A DNA stretch of 64,000 nucleotides from Deltaproteobacteria bacterium. Lineage in GTDB: Bacteria; Bdellovibrionota; UBA1018; UBA923. Positions 7,679 to 46,295 of this stretch are shown here, piece after piece (the first letter of the stretch is position 1; each line of letters starts with the position of its first letter). A program made the translations under genes and the position numbers. Below the pieces are notes generated by a model, which saw only the letters and a list, made by a program, of their open reading frames with translations, ran no database searches and was not told the DNA's origin. The stretch is taken from NCBI GenBank assembly GCA_016186905.1, contig JACPKS010000084.1:2261-66260 (forward strand), in the 5' to 3' direction.

Positions 7679-8191
7679 ATGAGACTCACTTCAAAGGGAC
7701 GCTACGCCGTCCGTGCGATTCTGGATCTGACGTTCAGTTCCAATGGCCGTCCGGTGCGGTTGCAGGAAATTTCCGAGCGCCAGAAGATCTCTCTGCACTA
7801 TCTCGAACAACTTTTCCGCCGCCTCCGCAAGGGCTCGGTCGTGAAGTCGGTTCGCGGCCCGGGCGGCGGCTACGTGCTCGCGCGTTCGATGGACGAGATC
7901 TCGATCAAAGACGTGCTCTTAAGCGTTGGCGAAAACATCAATCCGGCCAAAGATCTCATCGGCTCGGACGACATCAAGAGCAATACGGTCGAGTTCGTTC
8001 TTACCAAGACGTACTTCGAGAACCTCGGCGTGCTCATGCAGGAATACCTGTCGACCACGAGCATCGGAGACCTCATCCGCAAGGCTCGCGGCCAGGACAT
8101 GCCGAAGAATACCACGTTGGAAGACGTGCGTGGCTTGACCAAGCCCGAAGCGCCGCGCCCGGATGCCAAGCTTGGCCGCGGTATATCTTGA
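7679..8191 (+). CDS. Rrf2-family transcriptional regulator (IscR/NsrR-like)
   Basis: MRLTSKGRYAVRAILDL winged-helix N-terminus. No obvious 3-Cys cluster in the C-terminal half, so possibly a non-Fe-S Rrf2. Confidence 0.8.
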   Translation: MRLTSKGRYAVRAILDLTFSSNGRPVRLQEISERQKISLHYLEQLFRRLRKGSVVKSVRGPGGGYVLARSMDEISIKDVLLSVGENINPAKDLIGSDDIKSNTVEFVLTKTYFENLGVLMQEYLSTTSIGDLIRKARGQDMPKNTTLEDVRGLTKPEAPRPDAKLGRGIS

Positions 8192-9341
8192 TCACAACGC
8201 GTCCGCGCCGGTTCCCGAGGAACTTTTTCCGGAATCCGAAAAACTCCTGAAGCAGGGGTTCGCGAATCCGTCCAGCATTCATGAGGCCGGACGGCGCTCG
8301 AGGCGCCTCATCAGCGAGGCGGCGGAGCACGCGGCCGCGTTCGTGGATTGCGATCCCGAAGACGTCTATTGGACCTCCGGCGCGTCGGAATCGAACAGCT
8401 GGGCCTTGCATTCCGCTGTTCAATCCGCGCTTGAAAAAAATCCATCGCGAGTCCCGCGCCTTCTGATCTCGGCGATCGAACACGAGTCCGTTCAGCTCGC
8501 CGCCAAAGCGCTCGCCGCGCGATCGGACAGCCGGGCTGAGCTGCATTCGATTCCCGTGGATGCCGACGGCGTGATTCGCGTCGAGGCGTTGAAAACACGC
8601 CTGGCGCGGGATGCCGACTGGGATTTGATTTCCGTGATGCACGTCAATAACGAGACGGGCGTGATTCAGCCGATTGAGGATGTGGTCGCGGCCGCGCGTT
8701 CACATGGCGTGCCCACGCACGTTGATTGCGTTCAGACGCTTGGTAAAATTCCAATATCGCTGAAGCGGCTGGGAGCCAACTACGCAACGTTTTCGGGGCA
8801 TAAGATAGGTGCGCCAAAGGGAGTAGGCTTTCTCGCGATCCAAGGCGAGGGAAAGCGCCTCACGGCGCTTGTTCATGGAAAGCAGCAAAAAGGCCTTCGT
8901 GGCGGGACCGAGAACCCGGTGTCGGTCGCGATGTTCGGATTGGTTTTAAGCGAAATGGGAAAGGGCCGGCTTGCGTATCCTAAAGGCCTGGAAGCCTGGC
9001 GGGACGAATTCGAGGCGAAAATGAGAGACGCCATTCCAGGCGCCGTGATCCACGGAAAGAGGGCACGACGCCTTCCCAATACGACGTACGTGGGATTCGA
9101 AGGCATCGACGGCGACGGGGTGTTGATGAATCTCGATCTCGAGGGAGTCGCCGCTTCGTCGGGGTCGGCATGCACGTCCGGAAGTGTCGATCCAAGCCAT
9201 GTGCTTCTCGCGATGGGTTGTGATAAAGCCATGGCACGCTCCTCGGTTCGTTTCAGCTCGGGAAGAAACACTGCATGGCCGGATTTCGAGAAAGTCCTTG
9301 AAGTGTTGCCGGGCATCGTCCGCAGGATGAGAGGATTATGA
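8163..9341 (+). CDS. Cysteine desulfurase (NifS/IscS family, class V aminotransferase)
   Basis: VYLDHNASAP start region, PLP-lysine context SGHKIGAPKGVGFL, and active-site Cys loop SSGSACTSG. Confidence 0.85.
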   Translation: MPSLAAVYLDHNASAPVPEELFPESEKLLKQGFANPSSIHEAGRRSRRLISEAAEHAAAFVDCDPEDVYWTSGASESNSWALHSAVQSALEKNPSRVPRLLISAIEHESVQLAAKALAARSDSRAELHSIPVDADGVIRVEALKTRLARDADWDLISVMHVNNETGVIQPIEDVVAAARSHGVPTHVDCVQTLGKIPISLKRLGANYATFSGHKIGAPKGVGFLAIQGEGKRLTALVHGKQQKGLRGGTENPVSVAMFGLVLSEMGKGRLAYPKGLEAWRDEFEAKMRDAIPGAVIHGKRARRLPNTTYVGFEGIDGDGVLMNLDLEGVAASSGSACTSGSVDPSHVLLAMGCDKAMARSSVRFSSGRNTAWPDFEKVLEVLPGIVRRMRGL

Positions 9342-10540
9342 CGACTCAGTTCAGTGGCGCCGCGGGTCGCGCGGCGCAGGGTAATGGAAAACGGGTTCTC
9401 GTGGCAATGAGCGGAGGAGTCGACAGCTCGGTTGCCGCGGCTTTGCTTAAGGTGCAGGGCTACGACGTCATCGGCGTGCACATGCAGCTCTGGGATCAGG
9501 CTGAAAAAATGCCTAAGAAGTCGAGCGGGAGCTGCTGCTCCATCGTCGACGCGGGCGACGCCCGACGCGTCTGCGATATCCTGGAAATCCCGTTTTACGT
9601 GATCAACGCGCGCGACCAGTTTCAGTCCGACGTGATCGATTATTTCGTCGGCGAGTACCTGCAGGCGCGCACGCCCAATCCGTGCGTGATGTGCAACAAC
9701 CGGCTGAAATTCAGTTTTCTGCTACGCAAGGCCGACGAGCTCAAGTGCGAGCTTGTGGGCACCGGCCACTACGCGAAGGTGATGCGCGACCATTCCACCG
9801 GCGAGATGCGGCTGTGCAAGGCGACCGATCCGCAAAAAGATCAGAGCTACTTTCTCTTCGGCCTCAAGCAGGAGGCGCTCGCGCGGGCCGTGATGCCGCT
9901 CGGCGATTTTTTGAAAGCCAACGTGCGCAGGCTTGCCGAGACTTTCAACCTTCCCGTCGCCGACAAAAAAGACAGCCAGGAAATCTGCTTCATCGACGAG
10001 GGCGGCTATAAGGGCTTCGTCGAAAGCCGTTCGGCCGAACACAACCGTCCGGGCGGACCGATCGTGAACCAGGAAGGCAACATCCTGGGGCATCACGCCG
10101 GACTTTATCGTTATACGATCGGCCAGCGAAAAGGGCTCGCCCTCGGTAGCCCCGACGCGCAGGATTTTTACGTGATCGGATACGATCTTGCGTTAAACGC
10201 GCTCATCGTCGGTCCGGAAAAAGAACTTTTTCGAAAGAGTCTTAATGCGAACAACTGCAACTGGATCGGCAGGCTCGATTTCACGAAGGGCATTCGCGCG
10301 ACGGCGAAAATCCGCTCGCGCCACGATGAGGCGCCATGCCTGATCACGGCTCTGAACAACGAAGGCGTCACGGCCGAGTTCGACGGGCCCCAGCGCGCAA
10401 TCACGCCGGGCCAGGCGATCGTGTTCTACCAAGGCGAAGTGCTGATCGGCGGCGGCTGGATCCAAGGGCTGACCGAGCCGGTGAGCACGAAACTCAAGGC
10501 GAGCGCCGGGCGTCAGCAAGGCGCGACAGCGCAGCTCTGA
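9338..10540 (+). CDS. mnmA: tRNA-specific 2-thiouridylase MnmA
   Basis: PP-loop VLVAMSGGVDSSVAA, catalytic Cys region, 400 aa. ATGA overlap with the desulfurase stop. Confidence 0.9.
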   Translation: MTTQFSGAAGRAAQGNGKRVLVAMSGGVDSSVAAALLKVQGYDVIGVHMQLWDQAEKMPKKSSGSCCSIVDAGDARRVCDILEIPFYVINARDQFQSDVIDYFVGEYLQARTPNPCVMCNNRLKFSFLLRKADELKCELVGTGHYAKVMRDHSTGEMRLCKATDPQKDQSYFLFGLKQEALARAVMPLGDFLKANVRRLAETFNLPVADKKDSQEICFIDEGGYKGFVESRSAEHNRPGGPIVNQEGNILGHHAGLYRYTIGQRKGLALGSPDAQDFYVIGYDLALNALIVGPEKELFRKSLNANNCNWIGRLDFTKGIRATAKIRSRHDEAPCLITALNNEGVTAEFDGPQRAITPGQAIVFYQGEVLIGGGWIQGLTEPVSTKLKASAGRQQGATAQL

Positions 10541-10570
10541 GTGAAACGCGGCTGCATGACAGGCACCCCG

Positions 10571-11956
10571 ATGTTCCGCTATTCCATCCGAACCCTGGGC
10601 TGCAAGGCCAACCTTTACGATTCGCTGGTGCTTGAGCGCGAACTCTCCGAACTTGGCGGCGAGCGCGACGACAAGAATCCCGATCTTTTTCTTCTCAATA
10701 GTTGCACCGTCACGCAATCGGCCGACAGCCAGTGCCTCTATGAAGTGCGCGCGCTCAAAAAACGTTCTCCCGAAGCCTGGACCGTCGTGACCGGCTGCTA
10801 CGCCGAGGTCGCCGAAGAAAAAATCCGCGCAAGCCTCGGAGTCGACGCGGTCATCAACAACCGCGGCAAGCGCGGCTTGAAGAAAATGGTCGCCGATCGT
10901 TTCGGTATCGCGCTCGTGAATGACCCCAGCGCGGCGGAATCGGATCTCGGCGCCGGAATTTATTGGGGGCAGCTTCCGGTATTCAAGGGGCGGGTGCGCG
11001 CGTTTTTGAAGATTCAGGAAGGCTGCAACGATTTCTGCACCTATTGCATTATTCCCTACGCGCGAGGCAAGAGCCGTTCGGTGCGGCCGGGACCTTTGAT
11101 TGCGGAAGCGCAGCGGCTTGCCGATGCCGGCGTGCGCGAGCTCGTGTTGACCGGAGTGAATATCGCGGATTACGGGCTCGATCACGGCTCCGATCCTCGT
11201 ACGTCGTTCGACGATCTCGTCGAGGCGCTGCTGGAGCGCACGACGATGCCGCGGATCCGCCTGAGCTCGCTCGATCCTTCGGAGATCAGCGATCGATTGC
11301 TTTCAATGATGACGGCGGGCGGGCGCCTCATGCCGCATTTCCACGTTTCGCTGCAAAGCGCGGTAAGCCGCGTGTTGCGCGCGATGAAGCGGGCGTACCG
11401 CGCCGAAGACGTCGAAGCGGCGCTCGAACGCATCCATGCCAGAAGCTCCGGGATTTTCGTGGGCATGGACGTGATCGCGGGTTTCGCTTCCGAGACCGAC
11501 GAGGAACATCGCGAGGGGCTTCGTCGCCTGGAGCGTCTTCCATGGACGCGGCTGCATGTGTTTCCCTACTCGGAGCGCGGGGGAACGCCTGCCGCGCGAA
11601 TCCCGGGCGCGGTCGAACCCCGCGCGCGCTTTGAGCGCGCAAGAGAGCTGCTGGAACTTTCCCGCGTTCGGCACGAGGCTTTCGTGAAGCGATATGTCGG
11701 GAAACGCGTCGACGGCGTTTTGTTCGAGAGTGCGTTCGAGGCCGGCGGCGACCATTTCGTGGCCGGGCATTCGCCGAATTACCTGCGCGTGATGGCGCGC
11801 ATGCCGTCGCGCACGGAAGAAGAGGCGAGGTCTCGTTCGAACACGATCGCTTCGGTGCGCGCTCTGGGCGCGCTTCCGAAGCCTGAGCAGGACTGGACGC
11901 TTGAAGCGGCGATCGAAAACGCGGTTTTCGACGCGGGGGAGGCGGGTCATGCCTGA
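10571..11956 (+). CDS. MiaB-family radical-SAM tRNA methylthiotransferase (MtaB-like)
   Basis: N-terminal MTTase domain (RTLGCKANLYDS), radical SAM CNDFCTYCIIPYARG, C-terminal TRAM-like region. ATG at 10571 gives the canonical MFRYSIRTLGCK start; the track start at 10541 is GTG. Confidence 0.8.
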   Translation: MFRYSIRTLGCKANLYDSLVLERELSELGGERDDKNPDLFLLNSCTVTQSADSQCLYEVRALKKRSPEAWTVVTGCYAEVAEEKIRASLGVDAVINNRGKRGLKKMVADRFGIALVNDPSAAESDLGAGIYWGQLPVFKGRVRAFLKIQEGCNDFCTYCIIPYARGKSRSVRPGPLIAEAQRLADAGVRELVLTGVNIADYGLDHGSDPRTSFDDLVEALLERTTMPRIRLSSLDPSEISDRLLSMMTAGGRLMPHFHVSLQSAVSRVLRAMKRAYRAEDVEAALERIHARSSGIFVGMDVIAGFASETDEEHREGLRRLERLPWTRLHVFPYSERGGTPAARIPGAVEPRARFERARELLELSRVRHEAFVKRYVGKRVDGVLFESAFEAGGDHFVAGHSPNYLRVMARMPSRTEEEARSRSNTIASVRALGALPKPEQDWTLEAAIENAVFDAGEAGHA

Positions 11957-12656
11957 GCGTGCCGGATTCGGCAAAAAACTGGGTTATCGTTTTCGCGACT
12001 TGAAGTGGCTTGAGCTGGCGCTCATCCACAAATCTTTCGGAAATGAAAACCGCGGGGACATCGCGATCGACGAGCGCGACAACGAACGCCTTGAATTTTT
12101 AGGCGACGCCGTTCTCGACCTCGTGATTTCCGAAATACTCCTGAGCGAATATCGGGATTGGTCCGAGGGCGAACTCTCGAAGATGCGGGCAAGCCTCGTG
12201 AACGAGCGCGTGCTGGCAAGCCTCGCGCGCGATCTGGGGCTTGGAAGCCTTCTGAAACTTGGAAAGGGCGAGGAGCAAACCGGAGGGCGCGACAAAGACA
12301 GTATTCTCGCGAGCACGCTCGAAGCCGTGATTGCGGCGATTTACATGGACGCGGGTTACAAGGCGGCGCGGACGTGGGTGCAGGCGAGTTTTCTCTCGCG
12401 CTTGCGCCGGGCCCCGGCCGACGAGTCGTACGGCGATTTCAAGACGCGCCTGCAGGAAATCGTTCAGGCTCGCTTTAAGTCCGCTCCACGGTATGAGCTT
12501 ATCCAGACCGAGGGGCCGGATCACGACAAGACGTTTGAGGTGCGGCTGATCGTCGATGGAAAGGCCGTCGCGTCGGCAAGCGGCAAGAGCAAGAAAGAAG
12601 CCGAACAAAACGCCGCGCGCGCGGCACTGGCCAATCTTATTGAAGATTCCGAATGA
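11949..12656 (+). CDS. rnc: Ribonuclease III
   Basis: RNase III signature ERLEFLGDAVLDLVISE plus C-terminal dsRBD (KTFEVRLIVDGKAVASASGKSKKEAEQNAARAAL). ATGCCTGA overlap with the upstream gene. Confidence 0.9.
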   Translation: MPERAGFGKKLGYRFRDLKWLELALIHKSFGNENRGDIAIDERDNERLEFLGDAVLDLVISEILLSEYRDWSEGELSKMRASLVNERVLASLARDLGLGSLLKLGKGEEQTGGRDKDSILASTLEAVIAAIYMDAGYKAARTWVQASFLSRLRRAPADESYGDFKTRLQEIVQARFKSAPRYELIQTEGPDHDKTFEVRLIVDGKAVASASGKSKKEAEQNAARAALANLIEDSE

Positions 12657-13789
12657 TCATCCCGATCTTCACGCCGCACGGCGGATGCCCCGAGCGTTGC
12701 CGGTTTTGCGACCAAAGTGTCAGCGGCGGCGATCCCGTAAGCCACGCGCGCGTTCGCGCCACGATCGAGGCGCATCTCGCGACCTCGCCCGACGGTCGGG
12801 CCGAAGAAATCGCTTTTTACGGCGGTACCTTCACCGCAATGACGAAAGAACGCCAGCTTGCTTATCTTTCCGCCGCGAAGCCATACCTTGACGGCGGCCT
12901 GATCGGCGCCGTTCGCGTGAGCACTCGCCCGGACGCGCTCGATCGCGATTGGCTCGCGCGCCTTCGCGATGGGTTTCGGCTGCGAACGGTGGAGCTTGGC
13001 GTGCAGTCAGTGAGTGCCACTGTTCTTGAACGGCTTGGCCGCTCCCATGGCGTAGAGTGCATCGAGCCCGCCTTGGATTTGCTTGGCGAGCTCGGGCTGG
13101 TTGCCGGTCTGCATTTCATGGTGGGCTGCCCGGGCGAGGCAGAGGACGATGACCGCCGTTGTCTGGAATTTCTCGCGCGCGTTCGCGCGCGCGTAAGGTA
13201 CGCGCGCCTTCATCCGCTTCTTGTTCTCGCGGATACGGCGCTTGAAAACGATTTCCGCGCGGGGCTGTTCGCGCCGATTCCGCTTGAGATCGCGGTTGAG
13301 CGTTGCGCGGCTCTCACCGAGAAAATCGAAGCACTTGGCATCCGAGTGATCAGGCTAGGGCTTCAGCCCAATGAAATCCTCGCGGAGTCGATTGTGGCCG
13401 GTCCTTTTCATCCCGCGTTCGGCGACTTGGTTCGAGGCCGAATCCTCAGAAATCGGGTCGCGGGGATGCTTGAGAATCGGGCTAAGAGCGCGGAAGGCAA
13501 GGGCGACCGCCGTCGCCCCCCGGGCCTGGACGTCGAAGTGAGAGTCCCTGAGGCCCTTCTGGGGCGGTTTAAGGGACCCAGGGCGGCCAATCTGGATTGG
13601 CTTAAGCGCCGCTTTAACCTATCCACGCTGCGGGTAGTCGTGGTACAGAAAGCGGCAACCCATGGCCACGAGAGTAATACCGAAAACGGCGGTGAAAACC
13701 GCCTCCAGTACGAGTGTTCCGGCGGTGCGATCGGGATTCGTGACGTTGCTCGGCCTTCCGAACGCCGGCAAATCGAGCTTTCTCAATAA
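12653..13789 (+). CDS. Radical SAM protein (ELP3/YhcC-like Fe-S oxidoreductase)
   Basis: Cx3Cx2C motif IFTPHGGCPERCRFCDQ at the N-terminus, about 378 aa. The 3' end overlaps the era start. Confidence 0.6.
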   Translation: MIIPIFTPHGGCPERCRFCDQSVSGGDPVSHARVRATIEAHLATSPDGRAEEIAFYGGTFTAMTKERQLAYLSAAKPYLDGGLIGAVRVSTRPDALDRDWLARLRDGFRLRTVELGVQSVSATVLERLGRSHGVECIEPALDLLGELGLVAGLHFMVGCPGEAEDDDRRCLEFLARVRARVRYARLHPLLVLADTALENDFRAGLFAPIPLEIAVERCAALTEKIEALGIRVIRLGLQPNEILAESIVAGPFHPAFGDLVRGRILRNRVAGMLENRAKSAEGKGDRRRPPGLDVEVRVPEALLGRFKGPRAANLDWLKRRFNLSTLRVVVVQKAATHGHESNTENGGENRLQYECSGGAIGIRDVARPSERRQIELSQ

Positions 13790-14681
13790 GCTCGTCGGCT
13801 GCGATCTCGCCATCGTTTCGCCCAAGGCGCAGACGACTTGGCGGATTTTGCGCGGGCACGTCGTTCGCCCCGGCCTCGAACTGGTTCTCGTCGACACTCC
13901 CGGCGTGCAGGAAGGCTCGAAGGCCCTGAACTTAGCGCTCGCCCGCAACGCCATCCGCGCGGTGACCGCGGCGAAAGAAGGCCGCGAGACCGTCGCGTTT
14001 CTCGTCGACGCGAAAGATTTGTTCGAGCGTCTTAAGGCCGGAAAGCCCGCGGCGCTCGAAGCGATTCCGCGGGTGCTGGAGCGCGAGGGCATTCGGCTGC
14101 CGCTCGCATTCGATCTCATCCCGACACTCAACAAATCGGATCTCGTCAAGAAGCCCGAAGACCGCGCGCGCGTTGAAGCTCACGTGGTTGAGGTCGCGCG
14201 CAAACTTGCCGCAGCACCAAAGCCGTGTCTGTGGGTCTCAAGCCGCGCAGGCGAGGGTCTTGAGAATTGGATTACCGCGGTCTCGGCGCTTTTCCCCCAA
14301 GTACTGCCCGGCGCGCTTTTTGAGCAGGACACGCTTTCCGATCGCAACGTGCGCGACTTCGCCGCCGAGTACGTGCGGGAGCAGTGCTTCTTGCAGCTGG
14401 GCGAAGAGCTGCCGTATTCGACGGCGGTTCAGATCGGGAATTTCGACGAGAAAGACCCCAAGATCATCCGCATCGAAGCCGTTCTGCACGTCGAGCAGGA
14501 AAGCCAAAAGAGGATCGTCGTGGGAAGCCACGGCTCGAAGATCAAATCGATCGGCACGCGCGCGCGCAACCGCATTGAAACTTTTTTGGGCCGAAAAGTC
14601 TTCCTGGGTTTGCGGGTGAAGGTTTCGCCGCGCTGGGCGCGCGAAGAGTCGCAGGTGAAGAGGTTTGGCTATGCGGAATAG
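13725..14681 (+). CDS. era: GTPase Era
   Basis: G1 GLPNAGKSS, AQTT, DTPG, NKSD, and C-terminal KH domain. GTG at 13725 gives a canonical M-RSGFVTLLG Era N-terminus; the ORF-track start at 13662 overlaps the upstream gene by 127 nt. Confidence 0.85.
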   Translation: MRSGFVTLLGLPNAGKSSFLNKLVGCDLAIVSPKAQTTWRILRGHVVRPGLELVLVDTPGVQEGSKALNLALARNAIRAVTAAKEGRETVAFLVDAKDLFERLKAGKPAALEAIPRVLEREGIRLPLAFDLIPTLNKSDLVKKPEDRARVEAHVVEVARKLAAAPKPCLWVSSRAGEGLENWITAVSALFPQVLPGALFEQDTLSDRNVRDFAAEYVREQCFLQLGEELPYSTAVQIGNFDEKDPKIIRIEAVLHVEQESQKRIVVGSHGSKIKSIGTRARNRIETFLGRKVFLGLRVKVSPRWAREESQVKRFGYAE

Positions 14682-16122
14682 CCCTCCACGCGTGGCTCTT
14701 TGCGGCCGTCCCAATGTGGGAAAAAGCACGCTTTTTAACCGGCTCGTCGGACGAAAAAAGGCGTTGGTGTTGGATGAGCCGGGAGTGACCCGCGACGTGC
14801 ATCGCGCGCGCGTTCGCTGGGACGGCGGCGGCGAGCTCGAGCTCGCGGATCTGGCGGGGCTGGAGCTCTGGCATGACCGCGATGCGGACCATCGCAAGAG
14901 CGGAACGCTTGCGGCGCGCGAACAACTCGAGCTCAAGCGCCTCGCGATCGACGCCGCGAAGGAATACTTAAAGCAAGCCGACCTCGTGCTCCTCTTGGTG
15001 GACGCGCGCGCGGGAGTTACGCCCGCTGACGAAGAGCTCGCGCGCCTCGTGCGCCGAACCGGAAGAGACGCCTTGGTGGTGCTCTCGAAAGTCGAGGGAA
15101 GTGTGGGCGAGCAGGCAAGCCTTGAGGCGGCAACACTCGGTTTTGACGACGCGATCAAGACGTCGGCCGAACATAACTTGGGAATCGACGAGCTTAAGGA
15201 AGCCGTGCTCGCGAACATCGACGTGGAAACAAACGTGGAGTCGGCCGAAGACGTCGCCGGCGGCGAGGCGGCGGGTGTTGCTGCTGGCGAAGCCGCGCGC
15301 GGACCGCGCGGGCTGACGGCGGATCGGCCCGTCAGGCTCGGCGTCTACGGCCGCCCGAACGTGGGAAAGAGCACGCTCGTCAACGCGCTCTTAGGCGAAA
15401 AGCGCATGATCACTTCGCATATCGCGGGAACGACCGTCGACACGGTTGATACGGACTTCACGGCCGACGGGCGATTTTACAGGATTCTCGACACCGCCGG
15501 CATCCGCAAGAAGTCGAAGACCGAGCAGGGGGTCGAGGTTTTAAGCGTTGTCCGCGCGCTCCATTCGCTTGCCGACGTCGACGTGGCGCTGTTTCTGATC
15601 GACGGCTATGAGGGCGTGACCGATCAAGACGAAAAAATAGCGGGCGAGATCGTGCGAAGCGGAAAGTCGGCCGTGCTCGTCGTCAATAAATGGGACCTCT
15701 GCGGCGTAACGGAAGAAGAGTACGCGGCGCGCGTGCGCGAGACGTTCGGATTTCTCGATTTCGCGCCGATTCTTTTCGTGAGCGCCGCGAAGGGGAAGGG
15801 CCTTGAGTCGCTCTGGGAACTGATCGCCGAGGTTCTCGGGCAGCGCCACGCGATGGCCGCCACACCCGAACTCAACCGCTTTCTTGAAGTCATCGAAGGC
15901 GAGAACAACCCCACCGGCGTGAAGCTGTATTACGCGAGCCAGATCTCGAAGAACCCGCCCACGATCGCGATGATCGTAAGCGATCCGCGCAAGGTGCATT
16001 TCGCGTACGAGCGGTTTCTCAAAAACGAGCTTCGAAAACGCTTCGGTTGGATGGGAACGCCGCTGCGCCTGTTGTTCCGCGCGAAAAAACGCAGCCCGAG
16101 CAAGAAAGATCGCAGAACTTGA
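14665..16122 (+). CDS. der: GTPase Der (EngA), double GTPase domain
   Basis: Two G domains (GRPNVGKSTLFN and GRPNVGKSTLVN) plus C-terminal KH-like domain, 485 aa. Confidence 0.9.
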   Translation: MAMRNSPPRVALCGRPNVGKSTLFNRLVGRKKALVLDEPGVTRDVHRARVRWDGGGELELADLAGLELWHDRDADHRKSGTLAAREQLELKRLAIDAAKEYLKQADLVLLLVDARAGVTPADEELARLVRRTGRDALVVLSKVEGSVGEQASLEAATLGFDDAIKTSAEHNLGIDELKEAVLANIDVETNVESAEDVAGGEAAGVAAGEAARGPRGLTADRPVRLGVYGRPNVGKSTLVNALLGEKRMITSHIAGTTVDTVDTDFTADGRFYRILDTAGIRKKSKTEQGVEVLSVVRALHSLADVDVALFLIDGYEGVTDQDEKIAGEIVRSGKSAVLVVNKWDLCGVTEEEYAARVRETFGFLDFAPILFVSAAKGKGLESLWELIAEVLGQRHAMAATPELNRFLEVIEGENNPTGVKLYYASQISKNPPTIAMIVSDPRKVHFAYERFLKNELRKRFGWMGTPLRLLFRAKKRSPSKKDRRT

Positions 16123-16137
16123 TTACCTGTTAATCAA

Positions 16138-16211
16138 ACGCCTATGCCGGTGCGCTTGCCGAACCCATAGCCCGAAGGGCGTGGTGAGTGCAAGCGCACC
16201 GGCATAGGCGT
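16138..16211. terminator. 21-bp perfect inverted repeat (ACGCCTATGCCGGTGCGCTTG / CAAGCGCACCGGCATAGGCGT) around a 32-nt loop that itself contains a GCCC-GAA-GGGC mini-hairpin. Bidirectional terminator or REP-like structured element.
   Basis: Base-by-base pairing checked: 16138-16158 pairs with 16191-16211. Sits exactly between the convergent der and OMP stops. No flanking U-run on either strand. Confidence 0.6.
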
Positions 16212-16216
16212 GTAAA

Positions 16217-16978
16217 TCACCAAGTAAACAACAACATCATGCCAAACGAGTACCAGGTGCCGGTCTTGTCGGCGATGCCCGAGGTCGCGAATTTCGTGTC
16301 GAACTGGTCGTTGAACGAGACGAAGTGCGCAGCCGCGTTGAGATCGAGGAAAGTTTTCTTGGGCTTGAGCGTGAGCTCGAACCCCAGTCCTGCGTTGAAG
16401 CCCACGGCTTGCTCTTCTTGGATGGTTCCGCCCGTCGTGGTGGCTCCGGTGCCTGAGCCGATATTGTCGGTGCGTTTGTAGATTCCCGCTCCCGCGAGCA
16501 GGTGAGGGCCGACGAACGCGAGCGGCGCCGAAAGATCGTGCGTGTCGAAGTAGTATCGAATCTGCGGGATGAACCGAAAGAGATTCACGCTGGTCAAGCC
16601 GTCGGGCTGAACGTCGTAACTATGTTTGCTGTTTTGAATCCCGAGCGAGAACGCGAAGTGAAAGTCGAACCAGTAGACGAGCTGAAAATCGAGCGTGGGA
16701 AAGCCGCCCTGATAAAGCCTGCCGGCGTTGCCGCTCGCCGACGTGAACCCTCCGCCGAGCCCCACGCCGAAGAACCGGCCATACTGAAAAAATTTCTCGT
16801 CCTCGGCCTCTTCCTCGGCCGATTCGAACTCGCCGTAGCCCGAGTAGGGGCTTTCGATGATTTCGTTTTCAGGGGGCGTTGCGGTTGGATTCTCGGCCGC
16901 GCGTGCCGGCGCAAGCGCGGGCGGCGCGGACGCGGCGGCCGCCGCCAGGATCGCGAGCCAGAGACGTCCGCGCCGGAA
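16217..16978 (-). CDS. Outer-membrane beta-barrel protein (OMP_b-brl family); start codon unresolved
   Basis: ORF-track part 16217..16765. The same frame stays open upstream and encodes a signal-peptide-like RRGRLWLAILAAAAASAPPALAPARAAE with no ATG. C-terminal aromatic ...LLFTW. Confidence 0.5.
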   Translation of the reverse strand, partial: FRRGRLWLAILAAAAASAPPALAPARAAENPTATPPENEIIESPYSGYGEFESAEEEAEDEKFFQYGRFFGVGLGGGFTSASGNAGRLYQGGFPTLDFQLVYWFDFHFAFSLGIQNSKHSYDVQPDGLTSVNLFRFIPQIRYYFDTHDLSAPLAFVGPHLLAGAGIYKRTDNIGSGTGATTTGGTIQEEQAVGFNAGLGFELTLKPKKTFLDLNAAAHFVSFNDQFDTKFATSGIADKTGTWYSFGMMLLFTW

Positions 16979-16991
16979 ACGCTCTGAGATC

Positions 16992-17504
16992 TCAGAAATA
17001 GAAGTGCATCCCCGCTTGCAGGAAAGTGAAGCCGACGGTTTTAATCCCGAACGATCCTGTCGCGTTGTTCGCGCTCACACCGGTTTCAAACGAGAAGCCG
17101 AGGCTTTCGATTCCCGGTATGAAGAACTCGGCGCCCAAGAGGCCCAGCAGCTCAACGCCCGAATTCGTTCCCTTCACGTACGCAAGGCCCAAAGCCGCGT
17201 AGAAGTTAAGGTTCTGTTCGAAAAAGAGGTTTCGGAAGAGCTTTCCGCCGAACGTCGCGGCTGTCGGCACCGAGGTATTGAAGCCCAGGATGCCCGAGAC
17301 CGCGAGATCCTTGGACAGGCCGTATTTGAGGCTGATCGCGGGCACGGTGCGCGCTCCGCTTGAGTTCGAGAACTCGTCGACGAAACCGGCGCCGAGCCTT
17401 GCCGACATATCGCGCGCGCGCGCCGCCTGCGCCCATCCCAAAAGCAGAAAGACCAGGAGCGGGCAAAGGCACTGGCTTCTGGAAAAGCCCTTGAAAAGGT
17501 TCAT
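16992..17504 (-). CDS. Small outer-membrane beta-barrel protein (OmpW/OmpX-like, 8-strand class)
   Basis: Signal peptide MNLFKGF...LLGWAQAARA, alternating amphipathic beta strands, C-terminal ...GMHFYF ending in Phe. Confidence 0.6.
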   Translation of the reverse strand: MNLFKGFSRSQCLCPLLVFLLLGWAQAARARDMSARLGAGFVDEFSNSSGARTVPAISLKYGLSKDLAVSGILGFNTSVPTAATFGGKLFRNLFFEQNLNFYAALGLAYVKGTNSGVELLGLLGAEFFIPGIESLGFSFETGVSANNATGSFGIKTVGFTFLQAGMHFYF

Positions 17505-27289: not shown

Positions 27290-27574
27290 GATATTATCTA
27301 TGAAGGGTTTGAGTGGTCGTCTAGCAAAGAGGAGCTCAATATCCTTAAACATGGCGTGAATTTTACCGAAGCGTCGACGTGCTTTAGCGATCCGAGAGGA
27401 TTTGGGTTTGATGATCTGAAGCATTCCGATGTCGAGCGACGAGAATGGTGGATTGGCATGTCGGAGCGGAAAAGAATTTTAATCACCTGGTTCACGCCTC
27501 GTGGGGAACGCATTCGGATTATCGGATCTGCGTCATTTCGTAAATTTCGGAGACTCTACAATGAAAGAACCTGA
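27284..27574 (+). CDS. brnT: BrnT toxin (DUF497, RelE/ParE-fold ribonuclease)
   Basis: MYDIIYEGFEWSSSKEELNILKHGVNFTEA...RIRIIGSASFRKF matches the BrnT pattern (F-EWD..K...N..KHGV.F.EA; RIISAR). The ORF-track TTG at 27260 is an alternative start. Confidence 0.75.
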   Translation: MYDIIYEGFEWSSSKEELNILKHGVNFTEASTCFSDPRGFGFDDLKHSDVERREWWIGMSERKRILITWFTPRGERIRIIGSASFRKFRRLYNERT

Positions 27575-27845
27575 CCTTAGAAAAATGAGATACAACAAGG
27601 AACTCACCCAACAGATCCGCAAGTCCTTCGCGGGAAAAAGGAAGACCCGCATCACGATTTACATCGACGATGATTCGCTGGAGGAGTTGAAGCGAAGTGC
27701 GGCTGACACCGGTGCGGCCTACCAATCACTGTTGAACCGTATGCTTCGCAACGCGCTTTTCAATGCCGAGGCGAACTCTACGGAAACTCGTTTGCGGCGG
27801 ATCGAACGGGAGCTCGCTCGGTTGAAGAAAAAGATTGCGGCGTAG
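27561..27845 (+). CDS. brnA: BrnA antitoxin (CopG/RHH-like)
   Basis: Overlaps the brnT 3' end by 14 nt. ITIYIDDDSLEELKRSAADTGAAYQSLLNRMLRNAL matches the BrnA signature (TIRLDDDVLEWFK...GYQTRIN..LR). Confidence 0.7.
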   Translation: MKEPDLRKMRYNKELTQQIRKSFAGKRKTRITIYIDDDSLEELKRSAADTGAAYQSLLNRMLRNALFNAEANSTETRLRRIERELARLKKKIAA

Positions 27846-35488: not shown

Positions 35489-35512
35489 AGAAAACCAGGA
35501 AGAAGATCTTCA

Positions 35513-36262
35513 TTGAAAGCGAATCCCGATTTTCTTCAAAACGCGTTCAGCTATCTGCCGCTTTCCAGTAACGGGCTTTTCAGCTTAGCGTGCCTCCTTA
35601 TCGCTTTCGCGCTGCTTGATTTGTTTTTCACGAGAGCGATAAGGTTCAAGGCCGTTCATGGATTGGTGCTGCTGGCCGGTTCGGCGCTTGTCGTTAAAAT
35701 CGCCGTCGGAGAAGCCGTGTTGTTGGGCAGAAGCCAGGGGTACGAACCTGACCAGCCGATCAAATTTTCGCATCGAATCCATGCGGGCGAAAATAAGATC
35801 AACTGCGTTTATTGCCATACCGGAGTCAATGACAGCAGGTATGCCGGAATACCGCCCGCGAGTTTATGCTTGAATTGTCACAACGTCATCCGCAGCGGCA
35901 CGAATACCGGCAAGACAGAAATAGACAAGATCCACCAATCTGTCGACTCGGGGACGGCGATCCGATGGGTTAAAGTGCACACGCTGCCGGACTTCGTGTA
36001 TTTCAGCCATGCGCAACACGTGAACGTGGGCAAGATTCAATGCAAGAAATGTCACGGTGACGTCGAGAACATGGGCCGCATTCAGCAGGTTTCTGATTTA
36101 AGCATGGGTTGGTGCATTCAATGCCACAGGGAAACCAACGTAAATTTCGACAATAAATATTATGCTAGTTACAAACAGCACAAAGCTTTGGAGTCCGGCA
36201 AAATTTCAAAAGTAACTGCACAGGATATTGGAGGCAATAACTGCTCCAAATGCCACTACTAG
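35513..36262 (+). CDS. actA: Alternative complex III subunit ActA (pentaheme cytochrome c, membrane-anchored)
   Basis: Five CxxCH motifs (CVYCH, CLNCH, CKKCH, CIQCH, CSKCH) after an N-terminal TM anchor. Confidence 0.85.
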   Translation: MKANPDFLQNAFSYLPLSSNGLFSLACLLIAFALLDLFFTRAIRFKAVHGLVLLAGSALVVKIAVGEAVLLGRSQGYEPDQPIKFSHRIHAGENKINCVYCHTGVNDSRYAGIPPASLCLNCHNVIRSGTNTGKTEIDKIHQSVDSGTAIRWVKVHTLPDFVYFSHAQHVNVGKIQCKKCHGDVENMGRIQQVSDLSMGWCIQCHRETNVNFDNKYYASYKQHKALESGKISKVTAQDIGGNNCSKCHY

Positions 36263-36291
36263 TGAATTACTGATCAGGAATTATTATTTTT

Positions 36292-39200
36292 ATGAGTACA
36301 AACGAGTACAAAAAACACTGGGGCAGTATTGAAGAATTCGAAGTCGTTGCAGGTGTAAACACTCAAACTGAAATCAATGCATCGGATAACTCCAGGAAAA
36401 TAACAAAAGAGAACGAATCAATCAGCAGGCGTGATTTTCTGAAGGCAAGCGGGTTTAGTCTGGTTGCCGCAAGCCTGACCTTATCCGGATGTAAAAACGC
36501 GATCAATAAAGCGATTCCGTATCTGATCAAACCTGAATCGATCACTCCCGGTGTCTCCACCTTTTATGCGTCAACTTTTTTTGACGGCCATGATTACTGC
36601 AGCATTCTTGTCAAAACCACTGAAGGCCGTCCGATAAAGATCGAAGGCAACACGCTTTCAAGGGTCTCGACCGGCGGGACAAATGCGAAGGTTCAGGCAT
36701 CCGTTCTCAGCCTTTATGATGATTTCCGGATCAAGTCACCTCTTAAAGCGAAACAAAAAACAACTTGGGATACCGTTGACGCCGAGATTATTTCGAAGCT
36801 CGAAGAGCTGACGAAGAAAGGGAATAAAATCGTTATTCTCACGTCTTCAATCATCAGTCCGTCGACTAAAAACGTATTTAAGGATTTCCTTAAGAAATAT
36901 CCCACCACCGAAGTCATCTCTTATGACGCTATTTCCTCATCAGGGATGATCGAAGCAAATAAAATGACTTTTGGTAAAGAGGTTCTGCCGACCTATAAGT
37001 TCAATCGTGCGGATCTCATCGTCAGTTTCGGGGCGGATTTCCTGGGCACTTGGATTGCGCCGATTGAATTTACAAAGCAGTATGCAAGCAGAAGAACGCC
37101 CAGGTCAAAAACAGGCAAGGCAAATGCCGGCATTTCCAAGCATGTTCAATTTGAATCCACTTTATCCCTGACCGGCTCTAACGCCGATTACAGGATCCCC
37201 ATCAATCCATCCGAGGAAGGGCCGGTCCTTTTAGAAATCTACAATAAGCTTGCGACTCGCGCAGGAAAGAAGCCGGTTGCGGTATCCGATTCGAAGGTCG
37301 CCAATTCACAAATCGACGCTGGAACTCTTCCGGACGAACTCTGGGCGAAAAAAGGAAGGGCTTTAGTCGTTTCCGGCTCGAACGATGTTCACATTCAGAT
37401 ATTGGTGAATAAGATCAACAGCCTCATTGGGAGCTATGGGGCAACCATTGACCTTGGAAATCCCACTTATTACAGGCAAGGCATTGACGGCAAGATGGCT
37501 GAGTTGATTGAGCGCCTGGAAAAAGGAGAGGTAAAAGGGATGATTCTGTACCATGTTAATCCTGCTTACGATTATCCTCAGGCGGATCGATTCATCAACG
37601 CTTTAGCCAAGACGACTTTATCAGTATCATTCTCCGAGACCATGGATGAAACCGCGAGTCTGGTGAACTACATTTGTCCTGACAACCATTTCCTGGAATC
37701 ATGGAACGATGCCGAGCCAAGAAAAGGGAGTTTTAGTTTAGGCCAGCCCACCATCGGTAAATTGTTTGATACCCGGCAAGCTCAGGAAAGCTTGCTTAAA
37801 TGGACGGGCTTGACCGGCAGTCAGGGCGGAGAGGCGACTGAAGGAGAGAGTGCTTACTATCTCTATATTAAAAAATATTGGGAAAAGGCTTTATATCCCT
37901 TACAGTCAGGTCATCATTCTTTCGCATCGTTTTGGACCGCCGCTCTTCAGAACGGAGTCTACGAGCCGCCGGCGGCCCATTCTAAATCGCCACATACATT
38001 CTTACTGTCTGATCATGAGTTCAGCAAAACCGTTTCATCCGTATTATCGGAGAAAACCGAGGGATTTGAGTATTCGCTATATGAAAGTATTGGAATCGGC
38101 ACAGGCAGGCATGCGAACAATCCCTGGTTGCAGGAATTGCCCGATCCGGTCTCAAAGGTTTGCTGGGATAATTATCTGGCTGTTTCTTACGGTACCGCTA
38201 AAAAATTAAACCTCAAACTCGGGGATAATGTAAAAATTAATGATTTGTTCGAGCTCCCGGTTTTAATCCAGCCCGGCCAGTCGGATCATACGGTTTCAAT
38301 CGCGTTAGGTTACGGAAGAACCCACGCGGGAAAAGTCGCTGATCATGTCGGAAAAAACGCTTACAAATTAGTTAGCCTGCAAAAACGCAAAAACGGCATA
38401 CAACGGATATATAGCGGTGGCGGGATTACCTTTAAACCCACGGGTCGGAATTATATTTTTGCCCTTACGCAGACCCATCACACGATGGAAGGGCGAAACC
38501 ACGTAAGGCGCGGACGTCTTTCCGAATATGCCAAAAATCCGTATACAGGAAACGAACAACGCATCGAGGATCTGAAGCATAAAGTCTCGTTGTACAAAGC
38601 AAGAGTTTTCGAAGGGCACCACTGGGGTTTAGCCGTGGATCTGAGCCGCTGTACGGGTTGCAGCGCCTGCGTGATCGCCTGCACGGCGGAAAATAATGTT
38701 CCGGTCGTGGGTCGCGATGAGGTCCGGCAAAAGCGCATCATGCATTGGCTCAGGGTCGACAGGTACTATTCCGAGCAGCCGGTAAGACCGGAGGTCTATT
38801 TTCAGCCGGTCATGTGCATGCAATGCAATCATGCTCCCTGTGAAAACGTATGCCCGGTCGGGGCGACCCAAAATAGCAAGGAAGGGTTGAATGAGATGGC
38901 GTACAATCGATGCGTCGGAACCCGTTATTGCATGAACAATTGCCCATACCATGTCAGGAGATTCAACTGGCTCGCATACAGCAATAACAATAAATTTGAT
39001 TACAATACGAACAGCGAGCTGGGCAAAATGGTGCTTAACCCTGATGTGGTGGTCAGGTCCAGGGGTGTTGTTGAAAAATGCACGTTCTGCGTTCAGCGTA
39101 TTCAAGAATCCAAACTTGTGGCCAAAACAGAAAACAGGGAACTCCTTGACGGCGAAATCAAGACAGCGTGCGTGCAAGCCTGTCCGGCCGGCGCAATGGT

Positions 39201-39348
39201 GTTTGGTGACCTGAACAAAAAAGACAGTGCAGTGTCCAAAGCTTTTTTAGACGAGAGAAATTATTTCTTACTCGAAGAATTACACACCGTACCTGCAGTC
39301 GGGTATTTGACAAAAATTAAGAATGACGAGCCTCTCGCAAAATCCTGA
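36292..39348 (+). CDS. actB: Alternative complex III subunit ActB (molybdopterin-oxidoreductase-like domain fused to 4Fe-4S ferredoxin domain, Tat signal)
   Basis: Tat motif SRRDFLKASG. 1018 aa. C-terminal Cys clusters CTGCSACVIAC...CMQCNHAPCENVCP...CPYHVRRFN. Confidence 0.85.
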   Translation: MSTNEYKKHWGSIEEFEVVAGVNTQTEINASDNSRKITKENESISRRDFLKASGFSLVAASLTLSGCKNAINKAIPYLIKPESITPGVSTFYASTFFDGHDYCSILVKTTEGRPIKIEGNTLSRVSTGGTNAKVQASVLSLYDDFRIKSPLKAKQKTTWDTVDAEIISKLEELTKKGNKIVILTSSIISPSTKNVFKDFLKKYPTTEVISYDAISSSGMIEANKMTFGKEVLPTYKFNRADLIVSFGADFLGTWIAPIEFTKQYASRRTPRSKTGKANAGISKHVQFESTLSLTGSNADYRIPINPSEEGPVLLEIYNKLATRAGKKPVAVSDSKVANSQIDAGTLPDELWAKKGRALVVSGSNDVHIQILVNKINSLIGSYGATIDLGNPTYYRQGIDGKMAELIERLEKGEVKGMILYHVNPAYDYPQADRFINALAKTTLSVSFSETMDETASLVNYICPDNHFLESWNDAEPRKGSFSLGQPTIGKLFDTRQAQESLLKWTGLTGSQGGEATEGESAYYLYIKKYWEKALYPLQSGHHSFASFWTAALQNGVYEPPAAHSKSPHTFLLSDHEFSKTVSSVLSEKTEGFEYSLYESIGIGTGRHANNPWLQELPDPVSKVCWDNYLAVSYGTAKKLNLKLGDNVKINDLFELPVLIQPGQSDHTVSIALGYGRTHAGKVADHVGKNAYKLVSLQKRKNGIQRIYSGGGITFKPTGRNYIFALTQTHHTMEGRNHVRRGRLSEYAKNPYTGNEQRIEDLKHKVSLYKARVFEGHHWGLAVDLSRCTGCSACVIACTAENNVPVVGRDEVRQKRIMHWLRVDRYYSEQPVRPEVYFQPVMCMQCNHAPCENVCPVGATQNSKEGLNEMAYNRCVGTRYCMNNCPYHVRRFNWLAYSNNNKFDYNTNSELGKMVLNPDVVVRSRGVVEKCTFCVQRIQESKLVAKTENRELLDGEIKTACVQACPAGAMVFGDLNKKDSAVSKAFLDERNYFLLEELHTVPAVGYLTKIKNDEPLAKS

Positions 39349-39356
39349 CATCAAAT

Positions 39357-41253: not shown

Positions 41254-41255
41254 AC

Positions 41256-42979: not shown

Positions 42980-43013
42980 TTAATGTGAACGATCAAAGGA
43001 TTCAGGGTGTTTC

Positions 43014-46002: not shown

Positions 46003-46004
46003 AA

Positions 46005-46289
46005 ATGGAACATGACACTCATCCGGCCGTACGGAATAAAACATTTATTAGCGTGTGGGCGATTCTTGTCGCTCTTACGATGGCTTCGGTAGGCGCGTCG
46101 AGTGTCCACGCGGGCACGGCGAGCCTCTTGGTTCCCTTGTTGATTGCCACCGTTAAAGCGAGTTTAGTGCTTTGGTTTTTCATGCATTTGAAATACGAAC
46201 GCGCTCTTTTCAAGGTCATGCTGCTCTTCCCGCTGGGTACGTTGGCCGTTATCATGGGTTTGACGTTCGTGGACACTTGGTTCAGGTAG
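46005..46289 (+). CDS. coxD: Cytochrome c oxidase subunit IV (caa3-type small subunit)
   Basis: 94 aa, two TM helices. Start ATG 46005; the ORF-track extension to 45942 overlaps coxC. Confidence 0.6.
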   Translation: MEHDTHPAVRNKTFISVWAILVALTMASVGASSVHAGTASLLVPLLIATVKASLVLWFFMHLKYERALFKVMLLFPLGTLAVIMGLTFVDTWFR

Positions 46290-46295
46290 GAGAAC

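What the first reader, a model, noticed from the sequence alone, without database searches (positions are those of the whole stretch)
16138..16211. Exceptionally long perfect hairpin (21-bp stem) between convergent der and OMP genes
The arms at 16138-16158 and 16191-16211 are perfectly complementary over 21 bp (about 70% GC). The 32-nt loop contains its own GCCC-GAA-GGGC hairpin. Neither side carries a U-tract, so it is not a classical intrinsic terminator. The size and perfection suggest a dispersed palindromic element (REP/MITE-like), a structured RNA, or a protein-binding site acting as a bidirectional transcriptional insulator.
Basis: seen in the sequence. Interest (0 to 1): 0.5.

Follow-up and report, generated by a model that had tools for sequence, protein, structure and literature searches.

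The report
Orphan 22-bp hairpin inserted between genes
A real and extremely stable 74-base DNA/RNA hairpin sits between the ends of two converging genes in an uncultured Bdellovibrionota bacterium; it is a lineage-specific insertion that most likely just caps the two messages, and no second copy or known family could be found.

Summary
The stem is 22 perfect Watson-Crick pairs (16138-16159 / 16190-16211), with a 30-nt partly self-paired top. It is by far the most stable fold in the 64-kb window. It lies 15 nt after the der stop, at the end of a conserved Rrf2-IscS-MnmA-MiaB-rnc-radSAM-era-der gene array. It lies 5 nt after the stop of a convergent outer-membrane beta-barrel gene.

At least nine related Bdellovibrionota species keep the same der> <OMP junction. 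There the two genes abut, overlap, are 5-24 nt apart, or are split by a whole inserted gene. None has a hairpin, so the element was gained in this lineage.

No second copy was found in the window, in about 290 kb of related loci, or in the genome, metagenome, viral, plasmid and phage collections. There is no Rfam match. The rest of this genome was not available.

My best reading is an orphan MITE/REPIN-like palindromic insertion. It probably acts passively as a 3'-end RNA hairpin for both transcripts: an exonuclease barrier, and a weak terminator on the OMP strand (tail UUGAUUAA). The function is inferred, not shown. Interest is moderate to low.

The parts
16138..16159 (.). 5' arm of the hairpin (ACGCCTATGCCGGTGCGCTTGC), 22 nt, 68% GC
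   Evidence: exact reverse complement of 16190-16211
16160..16189 (.). 30-nt top of the hairpin, partly self-paired. It holds the inner GCCC-GAA-GGGC stem-loop at 16170-16180 and a flanking CCC/GGU helix.
   Evidence: minimum-free-energy structures on both strands and as DNA
16190..16211 (.). 3' arm of the hairpin (GCAAGCGCACCGGCATAGGCGT)
16119..16137 (+). Small AT-rich hairpin TTGATTA-CCTGT-TAATCAA directly upstream of the big stem, overlapping the der stop codon (16120-16122). On the - strand this stretch supplies the weak U-rich tail UUGAUUAACAGG.
16132..16136 (.). AATCA, left copy of a possible 5-bp target-site duplication. It lies 1 nt outside the stem.
   Evidence: chance of such a shared 5-mer in 10-nt flanks is about 4-5%, so this is weak evidence
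16215..16219 (.). AATCA, right copy of the possible target-site duplication. It lies 3 nt outside the stem and contains the OMP stop codon TCA/TGA.
14665..16122 (+). der (EngA GTPase), last gene of the tight + strand array that starts at 7679 (Rrf2, IscS-like, MnmA, MiaB-like, rnc, radical SAM, era, der)
16217..16990 (-). Convergent outer-membrane beta-barrel gene (homologues about 250 aa, PF13505). The frame is open and homologous upstream of the listed GTG start at 16765, so the true start is uncertain.
11901..12656 (+). rnc (RNase III), in the same co-directional gene array whose 3' end carries the 22-bp duplex. It is context for the speculative reading only.

Best explanation
The element is a single-copy (as far as can be seen), lineage-specific palindromic insertion of about 74-78 bp. 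It has 22-bp perfect terminal inverted repeats around a 30-bp partly self-paired core. It landed in the otherwise almost non-existent spacer between the convergent der and OMP genes of an uncultured Bdellovibrionota bacterium. This makes it an orphan MITE/REPIN-like element.

The site is transcribed from both sides, so each transcript ends in, or runs into, a hairpin of about -60 kcal/mol. The most likely effect is passive. The hairpin forms a stable 3'-terminal structure that blocks 3'-to-5' exonucleases. It may also pause or partly terminate RNA polymerase. Termination would work better for the OMP transcript, whose stem is followed by UUGAUUAA, than for the rnc-era-der transcript, which has no U-tract. 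That would separate two transcription units which overlap in relatives.

Shown: the element's existence, its extreme stability, its uniqueness in the available sequence, its gain relative to relatives, and its position in both 3' untranslated regions. Inferred: the insertion mechanism and every functional effect.
For: The order radSAM-era-der> <OMP <hyp170 >TPR >BamB is conserved in L002, L003, L004, L006, L008, L009, L027, L029 and L034/35. The upstream part of the array, including rnc, is conserved too.

At the der/OMP junction the relatives show:
- 0 nt in L027, the closest non-strain relative (OMP 72% identical);
- 5 nt in L034;
- 24 nt in L002;
- overlaps of 11-35 nt in L009, L003, L029 and L008;
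- a whole inserted gene in L004 and L005.
None has a hairpin. The window has 94 nt, of which 74 are the hairpin. Removing the hairpin leaves about 20 nt, like the relatives.

The all-Watson-Crick stem with no G-U pairs is symmetric on both strands. That is expected for terminal inverted repeats or a recent inverted duplication, not for an RNA selected on one strand.

Other convergent junctions in the window are 9-23 nt without hairpins. Canonical hairpin-plus-U terminators are near shuffle expectation in the first 40 kb and higher in 40-60 kb (33 vs 29, 36 vs 28, 41 vs 26), and few lie at gene ends. So this is not part of a general terminator syntax.

There is literature precedent for palindromic elements acting as terminator and stabiliser in 3' untranslated regions, including between convergent genes (bioRxiv 10.64898/2026.03.23.713779). 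A REPIN is defined there as two inverted units plus a hairpin-forming spacer (PMC3337134).
Against: No second copy was found anywhere, so mobility is unproven:
- window at up to 3 mismatches, plus blastn-short and nhmmer;
- related loci;
- genome, metagenome and viral collections with the exact 22-mer;
- plasmids and phages (all E >= 3).

The putative target-site duplication is offset from the stem ends and has about a 5% chance probability. The arms are not themselves REP-like palindromes. No transposase was seen among the roughly 45 window ORFs annotated.

U-less hairpins failed to terminate mycobacterial RNA polymerase in vitro (PMC3993855), so true termination on the der strand is doubtful. 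No transcript data exist.

Strain-level contigs are 99.2-99.7% identical and carry no informative substitutions in the element. Selection on the structure therefore cannot be assessed.
Confidence: 0.45

Rival explanations
1. The element is a purely selfish or neutral palindromic mobile element (MITE/REPIN-type), or a one-off template-switch inverted duplication. It sits in a permissive gap between two gene ends and has no role in expression.
For: The element was gained only in this lineage. The same junction tolerates unrelated insertions in relatives: an 800-nt ORF in L004 and a 3.7-kb gene in L005. Relatives function with abutting or overlapping gene ends and no hairpin. The perfect Watson-Crick arms suggest a young element.
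Against: Any hairpin of -60 kcal/mol placed 15 nt and 5 nt after two stop codons will be in both transcripts. It can hardly be without effect on 3' processing. No other copy and no transposase were found.
Confidence: 0.25
2. The element is an RNase III processing site. The 22-bp uninterrupted duplex, two helical turns, is cut by RNase III, whose own gene (rnc) lies in the same operon. Cutting removes the protective 3' hairpin and exposes the rnc-era-der message, and/or the OMP message, to exonucleases. This would be a 3'-end feedback loop analogous to the 5' rncO autoregulation in E. coli and to lambda sib retroregulation.
For: rnc lies at 11901-12656 in the same tight co-directional array that ends at der. 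The stem length and perfection fit what RNase III needs (established knowledge). In E. coli RNase III autoregulates by cleaving a long stem-loop in the rnc-era mRNA leader (review PMC10582724).
Against: The operon is conserved in relatives without any such hairpin, so it is not a conserved regulatory design. Co-transcription of rnc through der is not shown. No cleavage data exist. Any long duplex is a potential RNase III substrate, so the fit is not specific.
Confidence: 0.08
3. The element acts at the DNA level. It could be a cruciform-forming or protein-bound palindrome between convergent units, for example a gyrase or nucleoid-protein site as proposed for BIMEs, or a recombinase site.
For: There is perfect two-fold symmetry at the DNA level. 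The DNA hairpin folds at -36.3 kcal/mol, z = -10.2. The location is where positive supercoils from convergent transcription accumulate (established knowledge).
Against: A 30-bp spacer disfavours cruciform extrusion, and positive supercoiling opposes it. No recombinase, integrase or partner site is present in the window. The element fails the attC features: there are no extrahelical bases, and the flanking GTTAATC is neither in the right position nor of the right consensus. It is absent in relatives.
Confidence: 0.07
4. The element is an independent small RNA gene, or a member of a conserved cis-regulatory RNA family.
For: The fold is very stable on both strands.
Against: No Rfam family matches. 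The only hit on the element is an eukaryotic miRNA precursor model at E = 9.1. No promoter-like site flanks it. It is not conserved outside one species.
Confidence: 0.03

Closest known systems
REPINs / REP elements (REP doublets forming hairpins, mobilised by RAYT transposases)
   Same: Two inverted units of about 22 nt are separated by a spacer that itself pairs, giving a near-perfect hairpin of about 75-90 nt. The element is extragenic and sits at gene 3' ends, including between convergent genes. Reported effects of such elements are 3'-UTR termination and mRNA stabilisation.
   Different: REPINs occur in tens to hundreds of copies, whereas only one copy is seen here. Each REP unit is itself an imperfect palindrome, and these arms are not. 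No RAYT gene was seen. The resemblance of part of the arm to the E. coli REP core was noticed by eye only, and the orientation within the stem is reversed.
MITEs such as Neisseria Correia elements, ERIC, RUP
   Same: The element is short and non-coding, with perfect terminal inverted repeats (22 bp). It is absent from the orthologous 'empty site' in relatives, and there is a possible short target-site duplication. When transcribed, such elements form long hairpins that can be RNase III substrates or terminators (established knowledge).
   Different: No family was found: no other copy and no parent IS with matching ends. The putative duplication, AATCA, is offset from the repeat ends and statistically weak.
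Non-canonical ('I-shaped', U-less) or bidirectional intrinsic terminators between convergent genes
   Same: A GC-rich hairpin lies immediately after two converging stop codons. It has an A-rich left flank and, on the opposite strand, a U-rich tail.
   Different: The stem of 22 bp, and 74 nt overall, far exceeds typical terminators (5-14 bp stem, 3-8 nt loop). The consensus scan does not call it. The + strand has no U-tract, and U-less hairpins did not terminate in a controlled in vitro system (PMC3993855). Other convergent junctions of this genome have no hairpin.
RNase III operator rncO (E. coli) / lambda sib retroregulator
   Same: A long RNA duplex lies in an untranslated part of a message that encodes, or is controlled by, RNase III.
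   Different: rncO is in the 5' leader, while this element is at the 3' end. The element is not conserved in relatives with the same operon. Cleavage is untested.

Membership tests
Canonical intrinsic (Rho-independent) terminator | GC-rich stem of about 5-14 bp with a short (3-8 nt) loop just downstream of a stop codon | tested here: not met
   The stem is 22 bp with a 30-nt structured top. The consensus scan over 15000-17500 does not report it. Its position after both stops does fit.
Canonical intrinsic (Rho-independent) terminator | U-tract of 7-9 nt immediately 3' of the stem | tested here: inconclusive
   The + strand tail is GUAAAUCA (2 U of 8), so the feature is not met there. The - strand tail is UUGAUUAA (4 U of 8), which is marginal.
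REP / REPIN | Many dispersed copies in the same genome | tested here: inconclusive
   There is one copy in the 64-kb window at up to 3 mismatches and by nhmmer. The rest of the genome is not in any searchable collection. Seeing no further copy in 64 kb still allows up to about 3 per 64 kb (95% bound).
REP / REPIN | Each unit is itself a short imperfect palindrome (REP) | tested here: not met
   The arm alone folds at only -4.3 kcal/mol with a 4-bp stem.
REP / REPIN | Two units in inverted orientation with a spacer that forms a hairpin | tested here: met
REP / REPIN | Cognate RAYT (Y1 transposase) gene in the genome | not testable with these tools
   None appears among the roughly 45 window ORFs scanned against Pfam. 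The genome is not available.
MITE | Terminal inverted repeats; small and non-coding | tested here: met
   22/22 perfect repeats, 74 nt in total, with no ORF of its own.
MITE | Target-site duplication directly flanking the repeats | tested here: inconclusive
   AATCA occurs at 16132-16136 and 16215-16219, offset 1 and 3 nt from the stem. The chance probability is about 0.04-0.05.
MITE | Empty orthologous site in relatives (presence/absence polymorphism) | tested here: met
   At least nine relatives with the same gene order lack it. The junction there ranges from a 35-nt overlap to a 24-nt gap.
MITE | Multiple copies and/or a parent IS with the same ends | tested here: inconclusive
   None was found in the window, loci, plasmids, phages, or the genome, metagenome and viral scans. 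The host genome itself could not be searched.
Integron attC site | R''/L''-L'/R' organisation with GTTRRRY at the 3' end and extrahelical bases in the stem | tested here: not met
   The stem is perfect with no extrahelical base. The flanking GTTAATC is on the 5' side and breaks the consensus. The neighbouring genes are conserved core genes, not cassettes.
Any Rfam RNA family | Score at or above the family's gathering threshold | tested here: not met
   There is no gathering-level hit in the whole window. Over the element there is only mir-4423 at 15.7 bits against a threshold of 78, E = 9.1.
RNase III substrate | Uninterrupted RNA duplex of about 20-22 bp or more | tested here: met
   22 contiguous Watson-Crick pairs on either strand.
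RNase III substrate | Demonstrated cleavage | not testable with these tools
   This needs an in vitro cleavage assay or a comparison of 3' and 5' ends in an rnc mutant.

The most novel reading that the evidence does not exclude
The hairpin is a 3'-terminal RNase III 'operator'. The operon that encodes RNase III (rnc-radSAM-era-der) ends in a perfect two-turn duplex. RNase III cuts this duplex and so removes the exonuclease barrier. That would give a recently evolved 3'-end negative feedback on RNase III, Era and Der, and at the same time couple decay of the convergent OMP message to RNase III. The whole device would have been created by a single palindromic insertion.
Probability: 0.08. Interest if true: 0.6.

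Novelty: new member of a known kind. Interest (0 to 1): 0.3.

Why it matters
If the reading is right, this is a clean natural example of how one small palindromic insertion can turn two abutting or overlapping convergent genes into two units separated by a very strong RNA hairpin. It happened in a clade, Bdellovibrionota, where such elements have not been described. It would also be a convenient test case, because closely comparable relatives provide the 'before' state. Possible experiments include testing whether U-less giant hairpins terminate, stabilise or are processed, and whether RNase III acts on the 3' end of its own operon. If the full genome turns out to hold a family of such elements, that would be a new MITE/REPIN-type family. 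As it stands, this is a single orphan element with no functional data.

Tried and rejected
1. Exact 22-mer scans of genome contigs, viral contigs and metagenome contigs returned 0 hits. The species is not in those collections. The nearest der in genome contigs is 67% identical.

2. I scanned metagenome contigs with the outer 12 nt of each arm and a free 33-63 nt gap. It gave 3 hits (L031-L033). L031 is a 561-nt-arm fold-back assembly artefact. L032 and L033 are unrelated palindromes that share only the 12-13-mer, with no similarity in the rest of the arms, loops or flanks. I rejected them as family members.

3. blastn-short and nhmmer of the 92-nt element against the window and all loci found only itself and its strain-level copies.

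4. blastn ('distant') against plasmids and phages gave nothing better than E = 3.

5. Rfam gave nothing, both with relaxed thresholds around the element and at gathering level on the whole window. There are no tRNAs in the window.

6. A covariation test was not possible. The only homologous copies are 99.2-99.7% identical strains with zero changes in the element.

7. I looked for independently evolved hairpins at the same junction in the relatives compared. There were none.

8. I considered attC, retron msd, CRISPR repeat and oriT readings and dropped them. The flanking genes are conserved core genes, and no integrase, reverse transcriptase, Cas or relaxase is nearby.

9. A resemblance of the arm to the E. 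coli REP core (GCCGG..GGCGT) was noted by eye. The orientation in the stem is reversed and it has no statistical support, so I did not pursue it.

10. The look-up of der by exact sequence failed, probably because of the start-codon choice.

Full report
OBSERVATION

The arms are ACGCCTATGCCGGTGCGCTTGC (16138-16159) and its exact reverse complement (16190-16211). That is 22, not 21, contiguous Watson-Crick pairs with no G-U pair. The loop is 30 nt. The loop contains GCCC-GAA-GGGC (16170-16180) and a flanking CCC/GGU helix, so the whole 74 nt forms one long hairpin.

As RNA, 111 nt around the element fold at -64.0 kcal/mol on the + strand and -65.7 on the - strand. Both have z = -10.5, and none of 200 shuffles does as well. 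As DNA the fold is -36.3 kcal/mol, z = -10.2. A perfect stem of 22 or more is expected 3e-7 times in 64 kb of this composition. The next longest perfect stem in the window is 12 bp. In an 80-nt sliding fold the element scores -60.3 kcal/mol against a window-wide mean of -22.9 (sd 6.3). It ranks first although it is less GC-rich than the runners-up.

It is not an assembly artefact. Four independent Logan assemblies carry the identical sequence between the same two genes.

CONTEXT

The + strand gene ending at 16122 is der/EngA, with two MMR_HSR1 GTPase domains and the EngA KH-like domain. It is the last gene of a tight co-directional array running from 7679 to 16122. The array comprises an Rrf2 regulator, a class-V aminotransferase (IscS-like), MnmA, a MiaB-like enzyme, RNase III (rnc), a radical-SAM protein, era and der.

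The - strand gene ending at 16217 is an outer-membrane beta-barrel protein. Its homologues are about 250 aa and many carry PF13505. The hairpin starts 15 nt after the der stop and ends 5 nt before the OMP stop.

The nearest der sequences in the species-representative genome collection are Bdellovibrionota/Bacteriovoracia MAGs at 55-67% identity. The organism is therefore an uncultured member of that phylum without a sequenced close relative.

COMPARATIVE EVIDENCE: THE HAIRPIN IS A GAIN

The gene order radSAM-era-der> <OMP <hyp170 >TPR >BamB is conserved in L002, L003, L004, L006, L008, L009, L027, L029 and L034/35. The upstream part of the array, including rnc, is conserved as well.

At the der/OMP junction the relatives show the following:
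- L027, the closest non-strain relative (OMP 72% identical): the two stop codons abut (TGA|TCA).
- L034: 5 nt between the genes.
- L002: 24 nt between the genes.
- L009, L003, L029 and L008: overlaps of 11, 17, about 27 and 35 nt.
- L004 (800 nt with an ORF) and L005 (a 3.7-kb gene): an unrelated whole gene is inserted.

None has a hairpin at the junction. No perfect stem above 15 bp occurs in any locus from a related genome. The longer stems found in the held sequence belong to the unrelated metagenome contigs L031-L033.

The window has a 94-nt spacer, of which 74 nt is the hairpin. Without the hairpin about 20 nt remain, as in the relatives. Parsimony therefore says the element was acquired in this lineage. 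The acquisition came after the split from the L027 lineage and before the divergence of the sampled strains (99.2-99.7% identity).

A 5-bp direct repeat, AATCA, lies 1 nt and 3 nt outside the two stem ends. It could be a target-site duplication. However, such a repeat arises by chance in about 4-5% of comparable flanks.

IS IT DISPERSED?

Everything searchable says one copy:
- The window at up to 3 mismatches.
- blastn-short and nhmmer against the window and all loci.
- Exact 22-mer scans of the genome, viral and metagenome collections.
- Plasmids and phages, with nothing better than E = 3.

A relaxed scan requiring only the outer 12 nt of both arms returned three metagenome contigs. One is a 561-nt-arm fold-back artefact. 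The other two are unrelated palindromes that share only that 12-13-mer.

The host genome outside this window is not in any collection I could scan. Finding no further copy in 64 kb excludes E. coli-like REP density but not a family of some tens of copies.

IS IT A KNOWN RNA OR A STANDARD TERMINATOR?

No Rfam family matches. The consensus terminator scan does not call the element. The + strand tail, GUAAAUCA, has no U-tract.

The other convergent junctions of the window are 19446/19465, 34316/34326 and 52473/52497. They are 9-23 nt long and lack strong hairpins. Hairpin-plus-U matches are near shuffle expectation in the first 40 kb and higher in 40-60 kb (33 vs 29, 36 vs 28, 41 vs 26). Few lie at gene ends. 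So the element is not an instance of a general terminator grammar in this genome.

In a clean in vitro system, U-less hairpins did not terminate mycobacterial RNA polymerase (PMC3993855). That argues against true intrinsic termination on the der strand.

MOST LIKELY MECHANISM

The all-Watson-Crick, strand-symmetric stem points to a DNA-level origin, either terminal inverted repeats or an inverted duplication. An RNA selected on one strand would not be expected to look like this.

The architecture is two inverted 22-nt units plus a hairpin-forming spacer, 74 nt in total. This matches the REPIN/MITE design (PMC3337134). The arms, however, are not themselves palindromic, and no family or transposase was found.

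Once present, the hairpin is necessarily part of both 3' untranslated regions. By analogy with REP elements, it most likely caps both messages. REP elements act as combined partial terminators and mRNA stabilisers, and they correlate with higher expression of both genes when placed between convergent genes (bioRxiv 10.64898/2026.03.23.713779). The hairpin may also stop the OMP transcript with the help of its weak U-tail. I give this origin-plus-function reading 0.45.

The same origin with no functional consequence gets 0.25. These two readings differ only in whether the unavoidable RNA structure matters to the cell.

SPECULATIVE READING WORTH RECORDING

RNase III is encoded in the same gene array. 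A 22-bp perfect duplex is an ideal RNase III substrate. In E. coli the enzyme autoregulates by cutting a long stem-loop in its own leader (PMC10582724). A 3'-end version, in which cutting removes the exonuclease barrier, is conceivable here. The operon is conserved without the hairpin in all relatives, so this could only be a recent add-on. I give it 0.08.

I rate DNA-level roles (cruciform or protein site) at 0.07 and an independent sRNA at 0.03.

VERDICT

The feature is real and statistically extreme, and it is a lineage-specific insertion at a conserved junction. It is best filed as an orphan member of the broad class of extragenic palindromic (MITE/REPIN-like) hairpins at convergent 3' ends. 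Its function is inferred only. It is not categorically new. Interest is 0.3.

Noticed in passing
window 11901-12656 (+), with 7679-16122: RNase III (rnc) lies in the same tight co-directional array (Rrf2, IscS-like, MnmA, MiaB-like, rnc, radical SAM, era, der) whose 3' end carries the 22-bp duplex. The array is conserved across the clade.
   Followed up: partly
window 16766-17005 (-): The OMP reading frame stays open and homologous to the N-terminal parts of 250-aa relatives, including a signal-peptide-like stretch. Yet there is no ATG, GTG or TTG upstream of 16765. Either a non-canonical start codon is used or the gene is N-terminally truncated. Public gene calls also give 182-183 aa.
   Followed up: partly
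window 16256-16286: Five SNPs plus an indel between the window and strain contigs L023/L024 cluster in 30 nt of the OMP 3' end (FATSGIADKTG vs FASTGGIPDKTG), 45-75 nt from the hairpin. The rest of the 6.5 kb has only five differences.
   Followed up: no
L033 3444-3569 and 3954-4069 (JGI Ga0233380_1003899, unrelated organism): There are two hairpins with 32-bp perfect stems. Their 52-62 nt loops are homologous in opposite orientation (core CTCAATCGCGACATCCATGTCGCTCATG). Their arms are only about 50% identical to each other, yet each is perfectly self-complementary. This looks like a palindromic element family in which something keeps the arms perfectly paired.
   Followed up: partly
L031 1-1126; L032 1444-1520: L031 is a complete fold-back contig with 561-nt perfect arms, almost certainly an assembly or library artefact. 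L032 has a 24-bp perfect stem ending exactly at the contig end.
   Followed up: no
L004 1162-1961; L005 7438-11114; L037 3311-5800: The junction downstream of der and OMP is a recurrent insertion point in this clade. L004 has an 800-nt segment with an ORF. L005 has a 1225-aa gene. L037 has an AAA_14/DUF4143 gene and a ParE toxin gene after the OMP.
   Followed up: no
window 16119-16137: A small perfect 7-bp inverted repeat, TTGATTA-N5-TAATCAA, overlaps the der stop codon directly upstream of the big stem.
   Followed up: no
window 15874-15930 (-): There is a sub-threshold Rfam hit to Chlorobi-1 RNA (24.8 bits against a gathering score of 50, E = 2.7e-4). It covers the full model length and lies antisense inside the der coding region.
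   Followed up: no
window about 35500-47200: A lower-GC stretch (46-53% against about 60%) encodes multihaem cytochrome c, a molybdopterin/Fe-S subunit, NrfD and ActD (alternative complex III), plus SCO1 and cytochrome oxidase subunits I-IV.
   Followed up: no
window 52497-59609 (-) and 59610-63400: There is a giant 2371-aa ORF. After it comes about 3.8 kb in which my crude ORF selection placed only one short gene. Neither was annotated.
   Followed up: no
window 27501-27845 (+): A BrnA-antitoxin-like ORF follows a 330-nt gap, next to a 115-nt convergent spacer.
   Followed up: no
window 15954 (ends of L001 and L023): Two Logan contigs from different runs both stop at exactly the same base inside der. 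A third, L025, stops at 16165 inside the hairpin loop. These are possibly strain-variation or graph break points.
   Followed up: no
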